In this document: one piece after another, positions 14,072-61,900 of the stretch
Layout: the number at the start of each line of letters is the position of its first letter
Numbering within the stretch: position 1 is the stretch's first letter
Source of the DNA: Microbotryum violaceum
Taxonomy: Eukaryota
Length of the DNA stretch: 64,000 bases
Assembly (NCBI GenBank): GCA_001244265.2
Contig: CDLV01000004.1
Span: 3,100,001-3,164,000 of the forward strand
Direction: 5' to 3'
Notes under the pieces: model-generated
The model's database searches: none
What the model saw: only the letters and a program-made list of their open reading frames with translations
Told to the model about the DNA's origin: nothing
Program-made: the position numbers and the translations under genes

Positions 14072-19466
<5,395 letters not shown>

Positions 19467-25153: not shown

Positions 25154-26699
25154 TCACTCAATCAGTTGCTCCATGGCATGCACACCCTCCAACCATCTGT
25201 CAACCGCTGAAGCATGCCATCGCTCCGTTATCCGCCGCTGGAGGCTTCAAGACCTTCGGGATTATTGAGAAATGGCGAGCGTTGACTGTGCAAGTCAACA
25301 TGACTTCTCACTTCCTCTCCAGACATGTTGTTGTTTGCGTTGCCCGGTTGTTCCGTCGACTCCGGAATGTGCAGGTTCTCGTCATAGATACCTCGGCCTC
25401 CGTTTTGAATACTGCCGGACCAGAAGAGTTGGTTTGGTGGATCGCTGCTCTGTGCGAAGCTTGTGGTTATTCCAAACATCTGGATACCATGCCAGGTCCT
25501 TGTTGATATCATCGAGAAATAGGAACTCCAAGAGCCACACATGTCGGGAGAGCTCGATGTTGAGGCCATGCTCGTCTTCCAGATGACGAAAGCGGTGTAG
25601 CCACGCATTGAGAACGGATTTCTTCAGGTCACGCCAGAACCTGTCAATTCGTTGGTTGTGTGGGGACCTGAAGATTGTGGGGCCGCAACATGACTACGAT
25701 CAGCGTTGGAGACAGCAACCTGGGGCCTAGGACGGGTCATGGTGCGGTGACTTACGTTCCCCAAAGGTAAGATCCGCGCCCAAGACCGCGAACGGCCTCC
25801 ATCATTGCAGCCACTTGAACGTTCTCTCCCCCCCTATCTCCTCTGACTCGAGACGGAACTCCGTAGAGTGCAATAGCGTCTTGGAAGACGCTCAGTACCG
25901 TGCTTGCCCAATTATTCGAAGATGCTCTGACCCCAGTAAGGACGCGGGAGTACCCGTCAATGAATCCATGTATGACAATGCCAAACGATATGAGCGCATG
26001 TTGGCCATCGTGATGCCACAGCGCGTTCGGCCCCGCCACATTGTACCTGCGCCTCATCACCGGGTGATTCGCATGTACGTGACGGCGAAGCGGACGCGTG
26101 CGCTGGATCGACGCTCGAAGTGCATCTCGGGGAACGTCGATACCCCGAGCCCGGAGTGCACCTCCCACTAGTATTTCGCCCAAGCTTGTTTCGTGATCGA
26201 GTATCTCCATTACGAGACGATTGAGTTCGGCATCGGGGAGGAGGGTCCGGGCCCTCGTGCGCTCGAAGGGTTGTCGCACTTTTTGATCAACGATGGCCTT
26301 TCGTATGGTCCGTCGAGAGACCCCAAACAGCTTCGCAATTTGTGTGGTACCAAGATTTTGCTCAGGAGCAGCTTGTCGTAAGAGTCCCGGGTCTACTTCA
26401 AGTTGCGGTCGGCCCCGTGCCCCACTTCGCACAGACGAGACCGGCGTGAACGTGGCTGAGACAGTCATGTCGGTGGCCGCGCTGATTTGTTCTGAAAGAG
26501 ATGATAGTAAAGAGTCGAAATGCCCAAGGTCAGTCGCCTCTTCTTGAGGATCGAAAGCACCCACTTGGATCGCTTGTTGGAACTGCGCCTCGGTTTGACG
26601 CGAGGCGCTCGTGGCACTCGAAAAGGCGATGCCGATCACCATCACAGTTCGCAAGGGCGTACAGGGCTTTCTGCACGTTTGCTGACCAGGTTGACGCAA
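25154..26699 (-). CDS. IS3/IS481-type integrase-core transposase with HTH (start uncertain)
   Basis: RGRPQL; HTH TQIAKLFGVSRRTI; NALWHHDGQH, IHGFIDGYSR, PSRVRGDRGGEN; after an intron (about 25668-25755) SPHNQRIDRFWRDL...WNNHKLR. Confidence 0.85.
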
Positions 26700-27104
26700 G
26701 TGAATGCAAGTCGATGGCCTTTCCGCGCTATTCCATGGGATAGCATCCGTCGGATCAGATGCGATGTCAGCTGTCAGGTGTTTACGAGGGAGTCCTGCCG
26801 AGCTCGAAGTTGCTCCAGCTTGGCAGTAGCTTATGTAAGCTCAGATACCTGGTTAATAGCCACTAGTAGTACGATCAAACAACTAGTACTTGAGGTCAAG
26901 CATTGGGCGATCATGTTTCTGTGGCTTTCAAAGTTGAATAACGATTCTGCTGCTGCATACCAAGACTCTTGGCCCCGACAAATAATTCTCTGGAACGAGC
27001 CCGTAGCTCTCTTCGCTTTTCGGCTTTTACTGCAAGAGTTTGACGCTGAGGACTTTAGCGCGCGCGACTTCAACACTCCCAGCCGTAAGCCGTGCCCGCA
27101 CGCA

Positions 27105-29620: not shown

Positions 29621-32600
29621 ATGATTCCATGCCTGTTTCTTGACGAAGATCAGGACTACTATTTGCACGACGATGACTTTGATCGATTATCGCCGCTCAC
29701 CAACATGACGGTTGCCGCGCTCCTCGCCTTCGATGTCGCTCCCGCCGACGCGTCTCTTCACATCGAGTTGTCCAAAGACGAGCCCACCCAGTATTCGAAC
29801 TTACCCTACCCGACTCTTCAGACCAGAGACGCGTTTCTCGCTACCGATGCTCTGATCAATGCACGCAAGAAAGGATATCGATCTTTGGCCGTTGGGTCGA
29901 CGTGTTTGCCGCTCGGCGCCGATCGGCTATGGTCAGAGTACGACCGAGCAAAAGACGTTCAAAGCTGGGCGCTGCGAGCTCAACGATGGATGGACAAAAT
30001 TATCGTTATCAACGAAATTGACCGCAACCGTATCGCTGTCGCACGTCGCATACTGAACGGATTGCAATGGCAAGAGCAAGACGGGCTTCTACCATTGCCT
30101 TTTCTTGCAAGTGGAACGAGTTTGGTTTATCTCCTGAGATTATTAAGTCAGTACACCAATCCTTCAGCTGGCCACTCGTATTCATCTCGTATCTGAGGCA
30201 ACTTGCTTATTCGCGTCTCTACCCAGGTCATGATTGGCTCGGTGAAGCCGCGGTGAACTTGTCAATTGAAAGCGTCCTTCGAGCTGGACGAGTGCAGAAT
30301 CCCGATTTCGAAACATCGTATGGACTTATACCCTCCACCGTCATCTCCTTGGTAATGGCTCGCCCTCCCAACTCGGATCCTCATTCGGTCTTCAAAGCCT
30401 GCTTTTTCGGCCCGCCAAACCAGTATCGGAATCTCATCGAGCTAGGCGATTGCATGCGCAACACGCCGACGTCAAAGTCAATCTGGTTTCTACCCCTCTG
30501 CTCCGACAGCCATTGGGTCCTGGCCCGCATCAACATGCACAAGCGGACATGGTCTGTGATCAACTCACTCTCCGCCACTCCGATCACCGCGGCTACTCGG
30601 ACGGCCGTCCTTACGCTATTCAAATTCCTGAAGCTGGACATCAAAAACGAGTTCCCTCATGCTCCTAAGGCGGAACAACAGGAAGACAGCTACTCGTGCG
30701 GGCCGGCTACGATCAATGCAGTGGAGACGGAGGTGCTCGGGATTGGGTCATTCAACGCAGCGCGCGCTCACATGTCACGGCTCCGTCAATTCTGTCGTTT
30801 ATCCTCTCTGGTTGGTGCTGTCGAGGATCCCAAAGAACTCGAATCCATCGTTGCCACGGGCGCAAAATCAAAGGCAAAGTATGGGAGGGGATCCGCTGCC
30901 GGAACACTGAGCAGCAAGAGCACGTCGGCAGAGTCCGGCAAGGCTGCGACAATCAAGCCAACAAATCAACGAGTCGCATCATCCTCAAAAAACCCGCCAA
31001 CTTCTCGACTTCAAACGACCTTCACCAAGGCATCGAAGCCGACGAAAGCTCGAGAGCTCATCCCGAGGAGCATACGATGTGGGCTCGCGACCATCCGCCT
31101 CTTTTCAGGAGGTTTGCTGAAAAAGTCGAAGATCGTTGCCCGGGATCGAATGTCGACGTCAACAATCCAAAGTACGTGCGGTGTGGGCGTTGTTATGTCC
31201 TGGTTCCAATGGCGGCCTTGCTGTGCAAGGCACGATTTCAATTACATCTCGGCAATAAGAAGTGTGTCAACCTCCAACCCATCAGCAATTTCTTCAGACC
31301 TATCGCCTCTGGCTCAACTGCTACCAGCCCCTCGCTAGGACCGTGCCCCGGCCTTACGTCTGAAACGGCGATGCATTATCTTTCATCAACTGCGGCGCAG
31401 GGTGCCGGGGTCCCTCCTCGACGGACGCTTCGTTTGCGCCTCTATCCCAAAATTGGTAAACGACCAATGACGGAGCTCGAGAGGAAGGAGGTGGACAAAT
31501 TGGAAGCAAATGAATGGAAGTGGCGCCACGATCATCGAGCACCGCGCATCATCAGTGTGAAATGTCGCAAGTATAGCGCTCGAGATTCGATCAACAAGGA
31601 CGGACCAAGCTTACCGTGTGAAGAATGCGCGAGGCTTCCTAAGGATTCATCCTGTCGAGCAGCTCTTCGACGTCAATATGCTGCTGGCGCAACTCGCAAA
31701 TACACCAACAAGAAATATGTCGCGGGCGATACACTTCTCTCGGCCATCTACCGGCGACATCATGGACTAGAAGAGATCCTGGATGACAACGGTCAAGGGA
31801 CCGTGTATCTACGATTCGCGCAAGGTGTGGCCTCAGGAGAATTTGACGGAGCGAACATCTTGGAGGGATTGGTGAAAGCGGCTACGGTCAAGCACGATCG
31901 GATGGTCAAGGGCAAATCAATGCAAGGCTTTGTGCGGTCCGAAGCGCTGCGTGACTTCGAGCAAGCCATGGCGCTGGCGTCTCCGATGGCTCTGAGAGTG
32001 CTGCAGGCTACAATCGGCGCATCCACAAGCCGAAAACTGCAGTGAGTACCGTCATTCTTTCGTTCCTTCAATTCAACCTCATACTGAATGATCGAGGTGC
32101 TTGCAGAATGGACCGAGCGACATCAGGCAGGATGCGCCTCGGCCTCGACAAGTCCAACATGGATCGTGTCTGCGCGAAACTCGAAGCAGACGGCCTAACG
32201 TTCAATTTGCACGTAGACGACACGAAGTGTCGATCCAGGATGCGAACCACTCCATACTACTCAGAAGACCTCAGTTTAGAGCGCGAACTACGTACGAAGG
32301 GCATATTCCGCCACGAGCTGATCGGATCAATTGCTCCGCCACGCATCTACGAAACTCCGAGTGAACTCCCTGATATGTTCAGCGGACCTGACCCCCGGTT
32401 GCTGGAACCAAAGTGAGTGGCAATGATGCTTTTAAGTTTGTACTTCATTTCCATGAGGCTTTAACATGTGTCGCCTCTTCATTCAGATCCGAGCTTACAT
32501 GATAGCACCGAACGATGTTGGCTCCCCAGCACAGGTGTTTGCCGCTTTTGTGATCGGCGAAACTACGAACGCGGAGGACGCGACCGAACAATTACATTCA

Positions 32601-44061: not shown

Positions 44062-45202
44062 GATATTGAAGCTCCTGCATGCTCTATTGTCCTATGGAGC
44101 TCTGCTCTTCTCCTCCTCATGTCCCTTGTTGTTTCGGAATGACTCACCCCTGATCTCATCACCCGGCCATTGTTTCGTGCGCAGGCTACAGCAGTGACGA
44201 CGCGGAAGAAGTCTCACAACATCACAGTAAGTTCCAGGACAGAAAAAGCAACTTCTTGGCTTTGCTCGTGCCCTTGATTCCAGATTGTCACTCAATGATC
44301 CTTCCTCTCTTCGTGTCTGCGCCGCTCTAGTTTCCACCCCTGTGTCTACGAGATCCGTAACCTTCGAGGGGTCGAGTGTTGTGGGAAGTTAGTAAAGGGT
44401 CAGCGGTCCAGAGGGACTTGTGGCATTGGGAAGTTGGCGCGCGCGTGGCACGGCGCCGGATGGAGGCAGATGGCGATGTGGCGTATTGATTGGACTCAGA
44501 GGTGGCTCGCACGCCGATACTATCTAAGGCTCTGGTCTCGTTCACTCTCACTATCTCACAATAGGTTAGTTGTAATACATTTAACACACACTCGATATCT
44601 ATCTCGCCCATTTGCCTGCTACAAGTTGATTGACCTTGGCGATACTCTATCTCACAATAGGTCATCTATCAACGCCGTGTAGCTACAGCGAATCTTCATT
44701 CATTCATTGGTACTCCAAGTCCAAATCCACAACAGGTTATGAGTTCGACGACTACCACCAATGTATCGAATGAAGGGGACGTCAAGATCACCAAGCTCGG
44801 TAAAGATAACTACGAGCTGTGGTCGATCCAAGTCGACGCGTTCCTCGAAGGTCGTGGCTACAGCAGTGTACTTCAACACGGAGCCGACCGACCATCGATT
44901 ATGGATGTGCAAGCATGGAAGACTCTCCATGGCATCGACCCAAGTCTAGAGGAGGGCAAGGTCCCGACTCTAATCACCAAGTGGGATCGTAGGCGCGATC
45001 ATCATCTCGTGCCTCGACGATTCGAATCTCAAGATGGTCAAGAGCAAGTCGCTCTCAGCCAAAAACATCTGGGAGAAGTTGAAACAACACCACGAAGGGA
45101 ACGCCGATCCGTTCAAGATTCGCACGCTACTCTACGAGATTTCGAATGCGTCGTACGATGAGGACACCAACCTCGGCGAGTTTCTCCAGGGCATCACGGA
45201 CA

Positions 45203-51656: not shown

Positions 51657-52449
51657 AGGCTGGGTTCGACTTTCCCCCCACCACCACCACACACACACAC
51701 ACCAAATTCTCGTGACATCATTTTATCCTACTGTACACTAAATAGATCGCTTTCATCTTTCATTTGTTACAGGTTCACCGTCGCGGATTATGGACCATCT
51801 CGCGATTTGGCGTCGACTCGGTGTGGCTCGCGCTCTCGGCTTCGGGGTTCTGAGTCAAGGGAGGGATCAGCGAACACAGGCAGAAAGTCGGCTTTGAGGG
51901 GCCAGGGACTGCCGATGGGGGAGGTTTTGAGGGACCTTCACCGCGTCTTGTTGTGACTGAGCAGAGACTTGGAGCGTCGAGGGTTGTGGTGGTTGCACAG
52001 TTGTGCTCTTGTCTTCGTCTCGACCGAGTGGGAAGTGGCTGTGGGGTGGGCCTTCTGTCGTTAGTACATTTATTTTCTTTCTTTTTCTCTTCGTCTCTCT
52101 TTCTCTCTCTCATTAGTCTCCTGGGGGGAGCAACCGCTTGGCTAGGGCATTTGAATCCGAATCTCGGATTGGTGGACTTGGCTCGTTTCTCGCACTTTTG
52201 CGGGCGGTTTGTGTTATCATTGTAGTCTTCCATCTAGTTTTTCCGTAGGCCAAAACAGGGGGAACAGGAATTGGGGGCAATATGATGAACGTTTTCTACA
52301 AAAAAAAAGGACAAGGTCGATCAACTCAAAGATCTCGGCCAAAAGTTCAAGGATGAAGCCATCGTCGCGTTTATGCTTCAAGCTCTACCTCCCTCATACG
52401 AGATGCTCAAGCAAGCTATAAAGCTCAGCGATAAGTGCTCGGTTGACTA

Positions 52450-57407
<4,958 letters not shown>

Positions 57408-57661
57408 GACTACGCCGTCAATCGACTTACCGACAAGTACAGTGAACGCAAGCTCACTGGCAAGTACGACAAATTACTCAAGAACGCGGGAGCGTTAGCA
57501 GTTCGCGAAGGCACGCAAGTCAAGCGTGATCCGAACGCCAAACGCGGTCGTAACAAGATCCACAGCAACAAGAAGAAGAAGCAACATAAGCATTCCAAGG
57601 GATCTGCGGATTCGGAGGAGTTGGCTTCTTTTGCATTGGTGGTCAAGTCTCTTGAGGAGAG

Positions 57662-57865
57662 AGTAGAAGTCAATGTTACCGTGCACCAGTCCGCCCGCCA
57701 TGGCTCCCAATGTGTGGTAGAACCACCGCCGGTGTAACTCGGGTGCACCGTCATATTCATCTATTCCCACTGGTTGAGTAGCTCAGCGGTCAGAGCAACT
57801 CTGATTAATAGAGTGGACCTGAGTTCAATTCTCAGTTCAGCCAAACTTTCTTTTGTTTTCCAATT
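57662..57865 (+). mobile_element. 204-bp insertion carrying a tRNA-like gene
   Basis: Absent from the homologous copia at 15421-15440; TSD GAGAG (57657-57661, 57866-57870). Confidence 0.85.
57772..57843 (+). tRNA. tRNA-like cloverleaf, anticodon position TTA, atypical anticodon loop
   Basis: Acceptor GGTTGAG/TTCAGCC, D stem GCTC/GAGC, anticodon stem ACTCT/AGAGT with loop GATTAAT, T stem CTGAG/CTCAG with loop TTCAATT. A and B boxes present; T-runs downstream. Confidence 0.75.
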
Positions 57866-58568
57866 GAGAGCCATTCGCTTCACATCAACGTCGCGAATAG
57901 GGTGTCACAGAACGACCAGAGTGAGATCTGGATCCTGGACACCGGTGCGAGTCAGCACTACGTCGGCAACGCAAGTCTGCTTACCGACCGTCAACATGGA
58001 AGTCTGAACGTTCAAACCGCAAGCGGTCAGGTAGTACATTGCGACACGTATGGTACGGTACGGTTCAAGTTGAGAAGCGAGGCCTCGCTCTCACTTTCAA
58101 ACGTCTACCATCTCCCGGGCGCTCCGGTGAACCTTGTCTTGACTCGTGCTCTATACCGATCAGGAGCTAGTTGCGGATGGGAAGACGGCAGGGATGTCAA
58201 CGATCAAGATCAAAGGGCTTACCGTAGCAAAGACGCTGAACGGTACCGGTTACACCCTTGACTTTACGCGCATTGTCAAGGACCAAGCTCATGTTGCAAC
58301 TCGTGCGACAGTGGGAGCGCCTTTGATGGAATGGCATTGTCGCTACGGCCACATCGCCGTGAGCTCGCTCAAGGAGCTTGTCAAGTCAGGCGCTGTAGAT
58401 GGACTAGTTCTCACCGACGAGAAGGTCCACGACTGCGAGCCCTGCATCAGTTCCAAGTCTCGCGTATCGAAGTTCTCCGAGTCGGTTACTCATGTCACCG
58501 ACGTCCTTCAACGCGTATTCATGGACATCGGATTCGTCGCAGAAGATCAAGTCAATTTTCAAGGTTGA

Positions 58569-58670
<102 letters not shown>

Positions 58671-58673
58671 TGA

Positions 58674-58919
<246 letters not shown>

Positions 58920-61900
58920 TAGGCCACATTTGTCGCGAATTGGGTCCTACACTCCAAGTTGGATGGCAAGACGGCTTACGAAGTTTTCTACGGAAAGAAG
59001 CCCAAGGTCTCGCACTTTTGTCCGTTTGGATTGACCGTCTTCGCGCAAGTCCCCAAGTCAAAACGCTCTAAGCTCGAGCCGACTTCAGTCAGGGGAACGT
59101 TCATCGGGTATGACAACGAGTACCACTATCCCGTGCTTGTCGACTCCGATTCGGAACACAAGGTGGTCATCACACGCGACATTGCGGTCTTGAACCTACA
59201 ACCAGAGGAGGTCCGTGCACCGGAGGTCACGACTTTGCTCGAGGGGCCAGATGAAGATGTGGGTCCCGTCTTGGAAGGCAACGACACCGGAGACGAACTT
59301 CAGGATGAGGTTGCTGTAGAGCAGATAGCCCCTGCTCATCCAAACCGTCCTCGTTGGGAACACGGAGATCCTGCGGTTAGGGGTCGAAACCCAGGCAGGT
59401 TTGAGGAGATCAACACAGGCAACGAGATTCATCAGCGTACTTGTGGCCAAAGACGCATCGCGGAACAACAAGGTCTCTTTGTCACAGATATACCCAAATT
59501 CGATCCCGAACCACCCATCATGTCTGGCTATGCGATGATCAGCACCGATCGACCGGCCGTACCCAGCAGCTACAAAGAAGCGATGAATAATGTCGAAGCG
59601 GACAAGTGGAAGGAAGCTATCCAGGACGAACTCAATGCGATGGATCGTCATCAAGTCCTTGCAGACTCGGATCTTCCCCACGGTGCTCGCGCTCTCGGGT
59701 CAAAGTGGGTTTTTGCTGTAAGGAGAACGCTCAAGGAGAAGTCATTCGTTACAAGGCTCGATTGGTCGCGCAAGTTTTTGCACAGCGATCTGGCATTGCC
59801 TACAATGAGACTTTCGCTCCTGTTGCTCGCTCTACGACGATTCTCTTTCTCATCGCCATCGCTGCATCCCAAGGACTGTGCCTCGAACAATTCGATTACG
59901 ACTCAGCGTTTCTGAACGGAACGATGACGGAGATGGTCTACATGAAGTATCCCAAGGGTTGGGATTGTCCTCAGCTTGGCCAAGTCCTTTGTCTTGTCAA
60001 ATCAATGTATGGAACGAAGCAAGCTCCTCGAGAATGGAACTCGGCAGTCAACAAACTCATGGTCGCTTGTGGTTACTCGCGATCTGACGCTGATTCATGT
60101 CTTTACGTCAAGCGTGTCGAGGAGATGTTCATCTACATTACTCTTTACGTCGATGATGGACTCGCTGCCTCGAACGATCAGACGTTTCTGGATTTGGAGA
60201 TCCAAGCTTTCAACAAGGTATACCAACTCAAGCGACTTGGTCCTGTGAAGGTGTTTCTTGGTCTCGAATTCCTGCGCTCGTCCAAGTTCATCTTCGTGCA
60301 CCAGTCCAAGTACATCAGGAGCCTTGTCGCTATGTATGGCGGAGATCACGGATCGAAGCACCCAGCGAAGGTCCCGATGGAGCCCAGGTCAAACATGGAA
60401 CACTCGGCGGAGCTGTTCGACGACATTGCACTCTACCAGTCAGCGTGGGAGCTTTGCAGTATGCTGCGCATCGTGCTCGTCCCGACATCGTCACTTTGGT
60501 TTGTGCAGCAGCTTCCAAGGTTTCAGCTCCTACCCAGGCCGACTGGATCGCGGTGAAGAGGATCATCCGCTACTTGCAAGGTACCATTGACTGGGGACTC
60601 AAGTACAACCTCGAGGGTTCGACTGTGTTCGAACTCTACTCAGATGCCTCGTGGGGAGACGACATGTTGACTGGCAAGTCATTAGGAGCGTTTGTCTCAA
60701 TCATGGCAGGCGCAGCAATTTCTTGGCAGAGTAAGCAGCAATCGATGGTTGCGACTTCGACTACTGAGGCCGAGATCTTGGCTGCTTCCGCGACAGCAAA
60801 GGAGGCCATGTGGCTTCGACGCCTGGCTGCGGATCTCAAGATTCAACAGCCTGGATCTACACTTCTCTGGGAGGACAATCAGGCGGTGATTGCGATCGCA
60901 CAGAACCCGGCTCATCATGGTTGGACGAAGCACTACAGTGTGCATCACTTCTACATTCGCGAGCGAGTTACGACTGGCGACATTCGAATCAAGTATTGCA
61001 AGACAGGAGCCATGACTGCGGATCTTCTCACCAAGCCGCTCGCTCGCAACTTGTTTGAACTTCATCGTGATGGATTGGGGATGGTATCCCGTGGAGCCTT
61101 GACTAGTGGGAGTGTTGTGGGAAGTTATTAAAGGGTCAGCGGTCCAGAGGGACTTGTGGCATTGGGAAGTTGGCGCGCGCGTGGCGCGGCGCCGGATGGA
61201 GGCAGATGGCGGTGTGGCGTATTGATTGGACTCAGAGGTGGCTTGCACGCGGATACTATCTAAGGCTCTGGTCTCGTTCACTCTCTTCTTCTTCTTTAAC
61301 ACACACTCGATATCTATCTTGCCCATTCGCCTGCTACAAGTTGATTGACCTTGGCGATACTCTATCTCACAATAGGTCATCTATCAACGCCGTGTAGCTA
61401 CAGCGAATCTTCCTTCATTCATTGGTACTCCAAGTCCAAATCCACAACAATCGAGACTTGCAAGGAATGTTTCGTCCTCTGCTGACACAGTCATTATCCA
61501 GCACCCACAACCTGGCGGTTTGTCACACGTGGGATCTGTACAAGGAAACAACATGTCGACAGCACGAACTTGTCTTGCATCGGACCAATCCGATTCGCCC
61601 CTAAACCGACCAACGCTCGCCTTTCCTTCATTTTCGCCAGTATTCGCCACGCGCAATATCGAACACCTACCAAAACAATGCAAGCACTCTGCGGTTCCTC
61701 AAGAGAGTAGCCCTTCCGCTGTTGTTACTCCCAGCAAACGGCGTCATTCGGAAGCGGAAAGCGTGACCCCAAGAGCTCCAGTCGGCAGAAAGCTTGCTCG
61801 CAATGTCGAGACCGAAAGTTGAAGTGTGATCTAGGTCATCCATGCTCGAAGTAGGTACAGTCTAGTATTTCATCATACCAAGAAAGAGCTGACAACTGGT

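What the first reader, a model, noticed from the sequence alone, without database searches (positions are those of the whole stretch)
57662..57865. Mobile 204-bp module carrying a perfect tRNA cloverleaf with a TTA (ochre-reading) anticodon
Seen: a TSD-flanked (GAGAG) insertion in copia gag-pol containing a 72-nt cloverleaf with all four stems paired, A/B boxes and T-rich terminator-like runs. The tRNA lies in the 3' half after ~110 bp of leader, the reverse of a SINE layout, and there is no A-tail. Ends are AGT...AATT, resembling non-TG/CA gypsy-type LTR ends. The loop has G32/A33 rather than Y32/U33, arguing against normal decoding. Inference: a solo LTR or mini-element with a Pol III tRNA mimic (compare Cassandra TRIMs carrying 5S), or a mobile suppressor-like tRNA.
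Basis: partly seen in the sequence, partly recalled or inferred. Interest (0 to 1): 0.72.

Follow-up and report, generated by a model that had tools for sequence, protein, structure and literature searches.

The report
Solo LTR carrying a tRNA look-alike
This is most likely the leftover end-piece (solo LTR) of a miniature retrotransposon whose repeats carry a tRNA look-alike, a kind of element first described in 2024, found here in an anther-smut fungus where a published screen had found none.

Summary
Window 57662-57865 is a 204-bp insertion flanked by a 5-bp duplication (GAGAG) inside a copia gag-pol frame. An 83%-identical copia copy in the same window has the empty site. The 3' half is a tRNA-like cloverleaf (Rfam tRNA 49.9 bits, 21 of 21 stem pairs standard, anticodon TTA, loop G32/A33), followed by two T4 runs.

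Contigs of four public runs show three things. The copia family mostly lacks the insertion. The module recurs with the same two ends in other flanks. In three of the four runs, two modules lie head-to-tail about 101 nt apart. One contig continues straight after the module with TGGTAGCG, the primer-binding start that several published fungal Helenus elements have.

This layout (leader + tRNA-like + T4 tail, LTR ~200 bp, short internal part, 5-bp duplication, frequent solo LTRs) matches Helenus/TRIMp3 (Kojima 2024, PMC10886601). The best reading (0.8) is a solo LTR of a Helenus-type TRIM in Microbotryum, a genus that paper reports as lacking Helenus. The ends are AG...TT, not TG...CA. Pol III transcription is inferred, and a working ochre suppressor is unlikely. 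It is a new member of a known kind, of moderate interest.

The parts
57657..57661 (+). left copy of the 5-bp target-site duplication GAGAG
   Evidence: the paralogous empty site has one GAGAG
57662..57865 (+). 204-bp module, read as a solo LTR of a Helenus-type TRIM (ends AGT...ATT)
   Evidence: same ends with other flanks in contigs of other runs; direct pair with 94 letters between in 3 of 4 runs
57662..57771 (+). leader (U3-like) with no family match; imperfect internal hairpin (arms 57672-57687 / 57742-57757)
   Evidence: no Rfam hit; most variable stretch among copies is 57725-57740
57772..57843 (+). tRNA-like cloverleaf
   Evidence: 49.9 bits, 21/21 pairs standard
57779..57789 (+). box A-like TAGCTCAGCGG (fits the TRGCY...YGG that is conserved in Helenus LTRs)
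   Evidence: sequence; motif definition from PMC10886601 section 3.5
57805..57807 (+). anticodon position TTA within loop GATTAAT (G32, A33)
   Evidence: 57807 A>G in a minority of contigs
57822..57832 (+). box B-like AGTTCAATTCT (AGTTC where Helenus mostly has GGTTC); most related contigs read AGTTCGACTCT
57847..57859 (+). T-rich tail TTTCTTTTGTTTT (two T4 runs), terminator-like
   Evidence: a T4 tail after the tRNA-like part is also seen in published Helenus LTRs
57866..57870 (+). right copy of the target-site duplication GAGAG
57413..61449 (+). host: degenerate copia element (gag end, Pol_BBD, integrase SH3, RVT_2) with its 3' LTR at 61113-61449; its 5' part lies beyond a nested copia

Best explanation
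The 204-bp module is a solo LTR of a non-autonomous miniature LTR retrotransposon (TRIM) of the Helenus / TRIMp3 type, in an anther-smut fungus (Microbotryum). Shown: it inserted into a copia gag-pol frame with a 5-bp duplication. It is a repeat family with fixed ends. It carries a complete tRNA-like cloverleaf followed by T4 runs. Inferred from contigs: the full element is LTR (204) - primer-binding site starting TGGTAGCG - about 100 nt - purine-rich tract - LTR (204), about 510 bp in all. Inferred by analogy with Cassandra and Helenus: the tRNA-like part serves as an internal (box A/B) RNA polymerase III promoter, not as a decoder. Transcription starts just upstream of 57772. The weak T4 runs are partly read through in the 5' LTR and end the RNA in the 3' LTR, so the tRNA-like stretch acts as the repeated R region. 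The 3' end of the host initiator tRNA primes reverse transcription, and the reverse transcriptase and integrase of an autonomous LTR element (5-bp duplication, so Copia-like) do the copying and insertion. Later LTR-LTR recombination left the solo LTR seen here.
For: (1) Insertion with a 5-bp TSD and a paralogous empty site; the frame is restored by removing 209 bp. (2), contigs of 4 runs of 4 coded organisms. The empty-site joint 57656>57866 is present in 4 of 4 runs. Loose ends sit exactly at the module's borders with unlike flanks: left border X1 1, X6 2, X7 1 contigs; right border X1 1, X6 2, X7 4 contigs. (3): the joint 57865>57655 with 94 letters between appears in 3 of 4 runs (X5 with 53 letters on the shorter side, X6 28, X7 29), so two modules lie in direct order. 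(4): the X1 contig continues after 57865 with TGGTAGCG. [quoted passage not shown] (5) tRNA-likeness. All 5 variant sites listed inside the tRNA part are loop positions (4) or turn U-A into U-G (1). (6) The layout matches published fungal Helenus: leader + tRNA-like + T4 tail in the LTR, 5-bp TSD, frequent solo LTRs. Sizes also match, e.g. 209/85/503 and 236/51/523 bp for LTR/internal/total. (7) The stretch or part of it is held by 20 of 24 listed runs from 9 studies and six coded organisms.
Against: The internal 94 letters were not shown, so the primer-binding site and the polypurine tract were never seen in one and the same copy. Only one contig (X5) bridges the LTR-internal-LTR joint with 31 or more letters on both sides. 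The TGGTAGCG start comes from a single contig of a run (X1) in which the pair joint was not listed. The LTR ends are AG...TT, whereas nearly all published Helenus LTRs seen in the passages, and the copia LTRs of this window, start TGTT and end CA. Box B reads AGTTC, not GGTTC. No TGGTAGCG and no second copy of the module occur in the window, so no autonomous partner is identified; the copias here use GGTTATGAG-type sites. TSDs of other copies were not seen. There is no evidence on transcription. The paper's own screen found no Helenus in Microbotryum, although that screen was by similarity to known families.
Confidence: 0.8

Rival explanations
1. A tRNA-derived SINE (SINE2) copied by a LINE's target-primed reverse transcription.
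For: tRNA-like sequence with box A/B-like motifs, short length, multi-copy. One contig (X1, loose end at 57760) has the tRNA-like part behind a different upstream sequence, and a sub-family diverges after 57861 (X1 3, X6 5, X7 2 contigs). The tRNA-like unit therefore also exists in other settings.
Against: The tRNA-like part lies in the 3' half behind a 110-nt leader that moves with it. There is no A-rich or repeat tail, and the duplication is exactly 5 bp. Also against it: the direct pair with fixed 94-letter spacing and the TGGTAGCG start after the 3' end.
Confidence: 0.07
2. The LTR of a larger, possibly autonomous LTR retrotransposon, not of a miniature one; the short pair form would then be a deletion derivative.
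For: Solo LTRs do not tell the size of their parent. The ends AG...TT differ from those of the copias in the window, so an unseen autonomous family with such ends must exist anyway.
Against: The only pair form seen has 94 letters between the modules, in 3 of 4 runs. A Pol III-type promoter with T4 runs suits short transcripts (argument of PMC10886601).
Confidence: 0.07
3. A mobile, working ochre-suppressor tRNA (anticodon UUA) spread by retrotransposition.
For: Complete cloverleaf with 21/21 pairs, 49.9 bits, box A/B-like motifs and a T-run terminator. TTA is the majority state at the anticodon among laid contigs.
Against: G32/A33 instead of the near-universal Y32/U33 (alignment; general tRNA knowledge, recalled). 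The anticodon varies among copies (TTA/TTG). In rust fungi all predicted tRNA-Sup-CTA genes lie in Helenus LTRs, and the author judges Helenus unlikely to encode functional tRNA.
Confidence: 0.03
4. A one-off capture of a cellular or mitochondrial tRNA locus (filler DNA at a repaired break).
For: Single copy in the window. CCA is not encoded after the discriminator base, as in a gene copy.
Against: The same 204-bp unit with the same ends occurs in other flanks in 3 further runs and is held by runs of six coded organisms. It has a clean 5-bp duplication.
Confidence: 0.02

Closest known systems
Helenus (TRIMp3), fungal families; Kojima 2024, Biology 13:119, PMC10886601
   Same: LTR of about 200 bp built as leader + tRNA-like sequence + short T4 tail. 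5-bp target duplication. Solo LTRs flanked by 5-bp duplications are common. Short internal part (published 51-85 bp and more; here about 100). Some families have an internal part that starts TGGTAGCG. Predicted 'suppressor' tRNAs arise from such LTRs.
   Different: The host genus: the paper found none in Microbotryum. LTR ends are AG...TT instead of TGTT...CA. Box B reads AGTTC. The anticodon position reads TTA (the paper lists Sup-CTA). No sequence homology to a named Helenus family was established here; only short tRNA-part motifs are shared.
Cassandra TRIMs of plants (5S rRNA-like sequence in the LTRs); known to me from PMC10886601 and search listings
   Same: A miniature LTR element whose LTR holds a small-RNA gene copy with an internal Pol III promoter and terminator.
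   Different: 5S-derived, not tRNA-derived; plants. No 5S match in the module.
tRNA-derived SINEs (SINE2)
   Same: tRNA-like head with box A/B, short, non-autonomous. Kojima proposes Helenus arose by SINE2 insertion into a TRIM LTR.
   Different: In SINEs the tRNA part is at the 5' end, with a LINE-related or A-rich tail and variable duplications. Here it lies in the 3' half, with no tail and a 5-bp duplication.

Membership tests
Helenus / TRIMp3 | tRNA-derived sequence inside the LTR, with box A (TRGCY...YGG) and box B (GGTTC) kept | tested here: met
   RF00005 49.9 bits. Box A TAGCT...CGG fits. Box B is AGTTC, 4 of 5 (motif).
Helenus / TRIMp3 | two LTRs in direct order around a short internal portion (whole element under about 1.3 kb) | tested here: met
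   joint 57865>57655 with 94 letters between in 3 of 4 runs. Only X5 has 31 or more letters on both sides (53); X6 has 28 and X7 29. The window itself holds only a solo copy.
Helenus / TRIMp3 | primer-binding site right after the 5' LTR | tested here: inconclusive
   One X1 contig continues after 57865 with TGGTAGCG, the start of several published Helenus internal portions. It was not seen in the same contig as the pair joint.
Helenus / TRIMp3 | polypurine tract right before the 3' LTR | tested here: inconclusive
   In the pair contigs the match runs 7 nt upstream of the second module (57655-57661, AGGAGAG in the window), with up to 3 other letters in 53. The internal letters themselves were not shown.
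Helenus / TRIMp3 | 4-6 bp target duplication (5 bp in fungi) | tested here: met
   GAGAG on both sides, one copy at the paralogous empty site. Only this one copy could be tested.
Helenus / TRIMp3 | sequence relatedness to a published Helenus family | tested here: inconclusive
   Motif look-ups only. The 13-mer of the majority B-box variant occurs 4 times in the supplement, the window's own 13-mer 0 times, and a D-arm 12-mer 3 times. No alignment was made.
Helenus / TRIMp3 | transcription by RNA polymerase III from the LTR | not testable with these tools
   Not validated for Helenus in the paper either.
canonical LTR retrotransposon LTR | termini 5'-TG...CA-3' | tested here: not met
   Ends are AGT...ATT, fixed by the duplication and the empty site and shared by other copies.
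tRNA-derived SINE (SINE2) | tRNA-related part at the 5' end, LINE-like or A-rich 3' tail | tested here: not met
   A 110-nt leader precedes the tRNA-like part, and the 3' end is ...TTTTCCAATT.
functional (suppressor) tRNA gene | canonical anticodon loop Y32-U33-NNN-R37 | tested here: not met
   The loop is G-A-TTA-A-T.
Cassandra | 5S rRNA-derived sequence in the LTR | tested here: not met
   No 5S match at E up to 10 in 57600-57930.

The most novel reading that the evidence does not exclude
An independently born Pol III-driven TRIM lineage of anther-smut fungi, with non-canonical AG...TT ends and hence an unusual integrase partner. Its LTR unit would be processed into a stable tRNA-like RNA with a UUA anticodon that acts in the cell, as a weak ochre suppressor or as a source of tRNA-fragment-like regulators.
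Probability: 0.04. Interest if true: 0.8.

Novelty: new member of a known kind. Interest (0 to 1): 0.38.

Why it matters
It places a tRNA-bearing miniature LTR element (Helenus/TRIMp3) in Microbotryum, where the only published survey reported none. That survey searched by similarity to known families, so such elements are probably more widespread and more often independently born than it suggests. It also warns that 'suppressor tRNA' calls by tRNA finders in fungal genomes can be LTR fragments. The AG...TT ends point to an autonomous partner whose integrase accepts non-TG/CA ends. The family is shared by several related organisms and sits in a TE-dense region, so it could serve as an insertion marker in studies of TE accumulation in anther-smut fungi.

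Tried and rejected
No whole genome is held for the window, so copies could not be collected directly.

Earlier findings of the scan gave nothing for this sequence, this genome, or the words used.

Module against the window: no second copy, only chance matches of 11-25 nt. The leader has no Rfam match.

Metagenome scans: a 26-nt 3' stretch gave 0 hits. A 22-nt T-arm/acceptor pattern gave 2 loci, L001 and L002. They are one locus at 99.6% identity, GC 43%, sharing only 30 nt with the module, and ARAGORN finds no tRNA in them. They are uninformative.

Expression: no RNA holder is listed. X7 is only guessed to be RNA, so its higher depth on the module than on the copia is not used.

Contig depths are not used as copy numbers, as the tool warns.

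The Atlas look-up of a copia ORF only said Streptophyta or Basidiomycota. The genus came from named hits.

Terminal inverted repeats (the MITE reading): none.

TGGTAGCG in the window, to find a partner element: 0 matches.

The thermodynamic MFE of the 72 nt is not the cloverleaf; the cloverleaf is 1.8 kcal/mol above it.

Only motif look-ups in the supplement were made. Table S1 and the figures of the supplement were not read in full.

Literature searches for Helenus/TRIMp3 after 2024 and for Microbotryum with TRIM/SINE/solo LTR listed no report of such an element in Microbotryum.

Full report
**What is there.** Window 57662-57865 is 204 bp long, begins AGT and ends ATT. It is bracketed by GAGAG at 57657-57661 and 57866-57870.
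- ARAGORN finds one tRNA in the whole 64-kb window, at 57771-57844 (+), with anticodon tta.
- Rfam's tRNA model is the only family that reaches its gathering score in the window: 57772-57843, 49.9 bits against 29, E 1.1e-07 (alignment).
- Written as a cloverleaf, 21 of 21 pairs are standard (19 Watson-Crick, 2 G-U). Its energy is -22.0 kcal/mol against an MFE of -23.8 for a slightly different fold.
- The anticodon loop reads GATTAAT, so G32/A33 stand where tRNAs have Y32/U33.
- After the discriminator A come TTT, TTTT and TTTT (57847-57859). CCA is not encoded.
- The 110-nt leader has no Rfam match. It holds an imperfect hairpin.
- There are no terminal inverted repeats and no A-tail.

**It is an insertion.**
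- The frame 57378-57661 (94 aa) and the frame 57866-58261 (131 aa with a copia Pol beta-barrel domain) are both open.
- They differ by exactly the 209 bp of module plus one GAGAG.
- A second copia of the same family in the window (15130-16763, 83% identical over 1336 nt) runs straight through the site with a single GAGAG.

**It is a repeat family with fixed ends.** No genome is held for the window. The module has no second copy in the window.
- Of 24 public runs listed, 20 hold the stretch or a part of it, 15 of them half or more of the sampled words. They come from 9 studies and six coded organisms. None holds more than 0.75 of the words.
- I laid Logan contigs of four runs of four coded organisms on 57462-58065 at 80% likeness.
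- In 4 of 4 runs a contig joins 57656 to 57866, skipping 209 with 5 ambiguous letters. Most copia copies therefore lack the module.
- Contigs that match up to the module's borders and then run into unlike sequence are listed at the left border (X1 1, X6 2, X7 1) and at the right border (X1 1, X6 2, X7 4).
- The very junction of this window is bridged by a listed contig only in X5 (57592-57707, no other letters). 95 further pieces were not shown.

**Evidence that the module is an LTR.**
- In 3 of 4 runs a contig goes from 57865, through 94 other letters, back to 57655 and on into the module. That is two modules in direct order about 101 nt apart.
- Only the X5 contig has 31 or more letters on both sides (53). 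X6 has 28 and X7 has 29.
- In X1, where this joint is not listed, one contig continues directly after 57865 with TGGTAGCG.
- The 7 nt before the second module match the purine run AGGAGAG of the window. This could be a polypurine tract or a chance likeness to the target site.
A primer-binding site and a purine tract were therefore never seen in one and the same copy.

**Variation among copies.**
- Inside the tRNA-like part five variant sites are listed. Four lie in loops: 57792, 57807, 57827 and 57829. One, 57810, turns a U-A pair into U-G.
- 57807 A>G changes TTA to TTG in a minority of contigs (X1 2, X6 1).
- At 57810, 57827 and 57829 most X1 contigs differ from the window.
- A related sub-family shares 57777-57861 at about 88% and then continues differently after 57861 (X1 3, X6 5, X7 2 contigs).
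- One X1 contig shares only 57760 onward. The tRNA-like unit therefore exists in more than one setting in these genomes.

**What is known.** A literature search led to Kojima 2024 (PMC10886601). I read the abstract, Methods, Results, Discussion, legends and tables and searched its supplement by motif.
[quoted passage not shown] With Cassandra (5S) and Ajax they are grouped as TRIMp3.
- Fungal Helenus make 5-bp duplications, and many families survive as solo LTRs flanked by 5-bp duplications.
- Elements are 311-1263 bp long. Fungal ones are thought to be moved by Copia elements.
- All predicted tRNA-Sup-CTA genes of two rust genera lie in Helenus.
- The consensus LTRs printed in the supplement passages have the same order as the module: leader, tRNA-like part, then a short tail with a T4 run.
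- Several internal portions begin TGGTAGCG (13 occurrences).
- Table S1 rows give 209/85/503 and 236/51/523 bp (LTR/internal/total), each with a 5-bp duplication. The inferred figures here are 204 / about 101 / about 509.

**Where it differs from published Helenus.**
- The paper states that no Helenus was found in Microbotryum. Its screen was by Censor similarity to known families.
- The window is from a Microbotryum. A copia ORF (53428-55173, minus strand) has its best hits, at 91, 86 and 83% identity, in proteins named as Microbotryum silenes-dioicae. Hits follow at 75% in M. saponariae and 72% in M. intermedium.
- The module's ends are AG...TT. The Helenus LTRs seen in the passages mostly start TGTT and end CA, with a few exceptions.
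- The two copia families of the window have TGTTG...ACAACA and TGTCA...CTAAAA ends, with GGTTATGAG-type primer sites.
- TGGTAGCG does not occur in the window, so the autonomous partner is not in view.

**How it most likely works.**
- Shown: insertion with a 5-bp duplication, the repeat family, and the tRNA-like fold.
- Inferred from contigs: an LTR-PBS-internal-PPT-LTR element of about 510 bp.
- Inferred by analogy: box A/B recruit RNA polymerase III, which starts just upstream of 57772.
- The two T4 runs would be weak terminators, read through in the 5' LTR and used in the 3' LTR. That fungal Pol III needs longer T runs for efficient termination is recalled, not from a call.
- The tRNA-like stretch would thus serve as the R region. 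Host initiator tRNA primes at TGGTAGCG, and a Copia-type reverse transcriptase and integrase complete the cycle.
- LTR-LTR recombination then gives the solo LTR.
- I put this at 0.8 for the solo-LTR/TRIM identity. The Pol III step is plausible but untested, as it is for Helenus in the paper itself.

**Rivals.**
- A LINE-driven SINE (0.07) fits the tRNA likeness. It does not fit the leader, the missing tail, the 5-bp duplication, the pair form or the TGGTAGCG start.
- An LTR of a larger element (0.07) cannot be excluded from a solo copy.
- A working ochre suppressor (0.03) is opposed by G32/A33 and by anticodon variation among copies.
- A one-off capture (0.02) is contradicted.

**Verdict.** The kind was described in 2024, so this is a new member of a known kind. 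It has two points of modest novelty: a host genus reported as lacking it, and non-canonical LTR ends. Interest 0.38.

Noticed in passing
window 52445-57412 (minus strand): A young nested copia. Its LTRs are 52450-52640 and 57137-57407, 99% identical over 180 nt. [quoted passage not shown] A run of more than 20 G precedes the 3' LTR. The LTR ends are TG...AA, not TG...CA. It splits the older copia that also holds the module.
   Followed up: partly
window 57148-57290: The 5' LTR of that nested copia carries an internal tandem duplication of about 63-80 nt (57148-57210 against 57228-57290, 95%) that the 3' LTR lacks.
   Followed up: no
window 44377-44734 and 61113-61449: Likely the two LTRs of the host copia (90.9% identical, TGTTG...ACAACA). 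GGTTATGAG follows the first. The flanks are TCGAG and A+TCGAG. The element would then span about 17 kb with several nested insertions, and it is much older than the nested copia.
   Followed up: partly
window 57777-57861, seen in contigs of runs X1, X6, X7: A related sub-family shares the tRNA-like part at about 88% and continues after 57861 with a different tail of 30 or more nt that ends in a CAACA-like motif. It is possibly a sister family with canonical LTR ends.
   Followed up: no
window 57683-57692 (X1): One contig carries a 10-nt tandem duplication of these letters in the leader.
   Followed up: no
L001 994-1023 and L002 903-932: Two metagenome contigs (one locus, 99.6% alike, GC 43%) share 30 nt with the module's T-arm, acceptor strand and the following AAAC, inside a degenerate tRNA-like stretch that ARAGORN does not call.
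   Followed up: partly
whole window: The 64 kb looks almost wholly made of nested retroelements: several copia and gypsy pol fragments, an rva_4 integrase ORF at 25752-26840, and a Ulp1-protease-like ORF at 30022-31338. Eight of the 19 ORFs scanned have no Pfam family.
   Followed up: no
window 57700-57711 and 57863-57874: A 12-nt inverted match (92%) between the leader and the module/flank border. It is probably chance.
   Followed up: no
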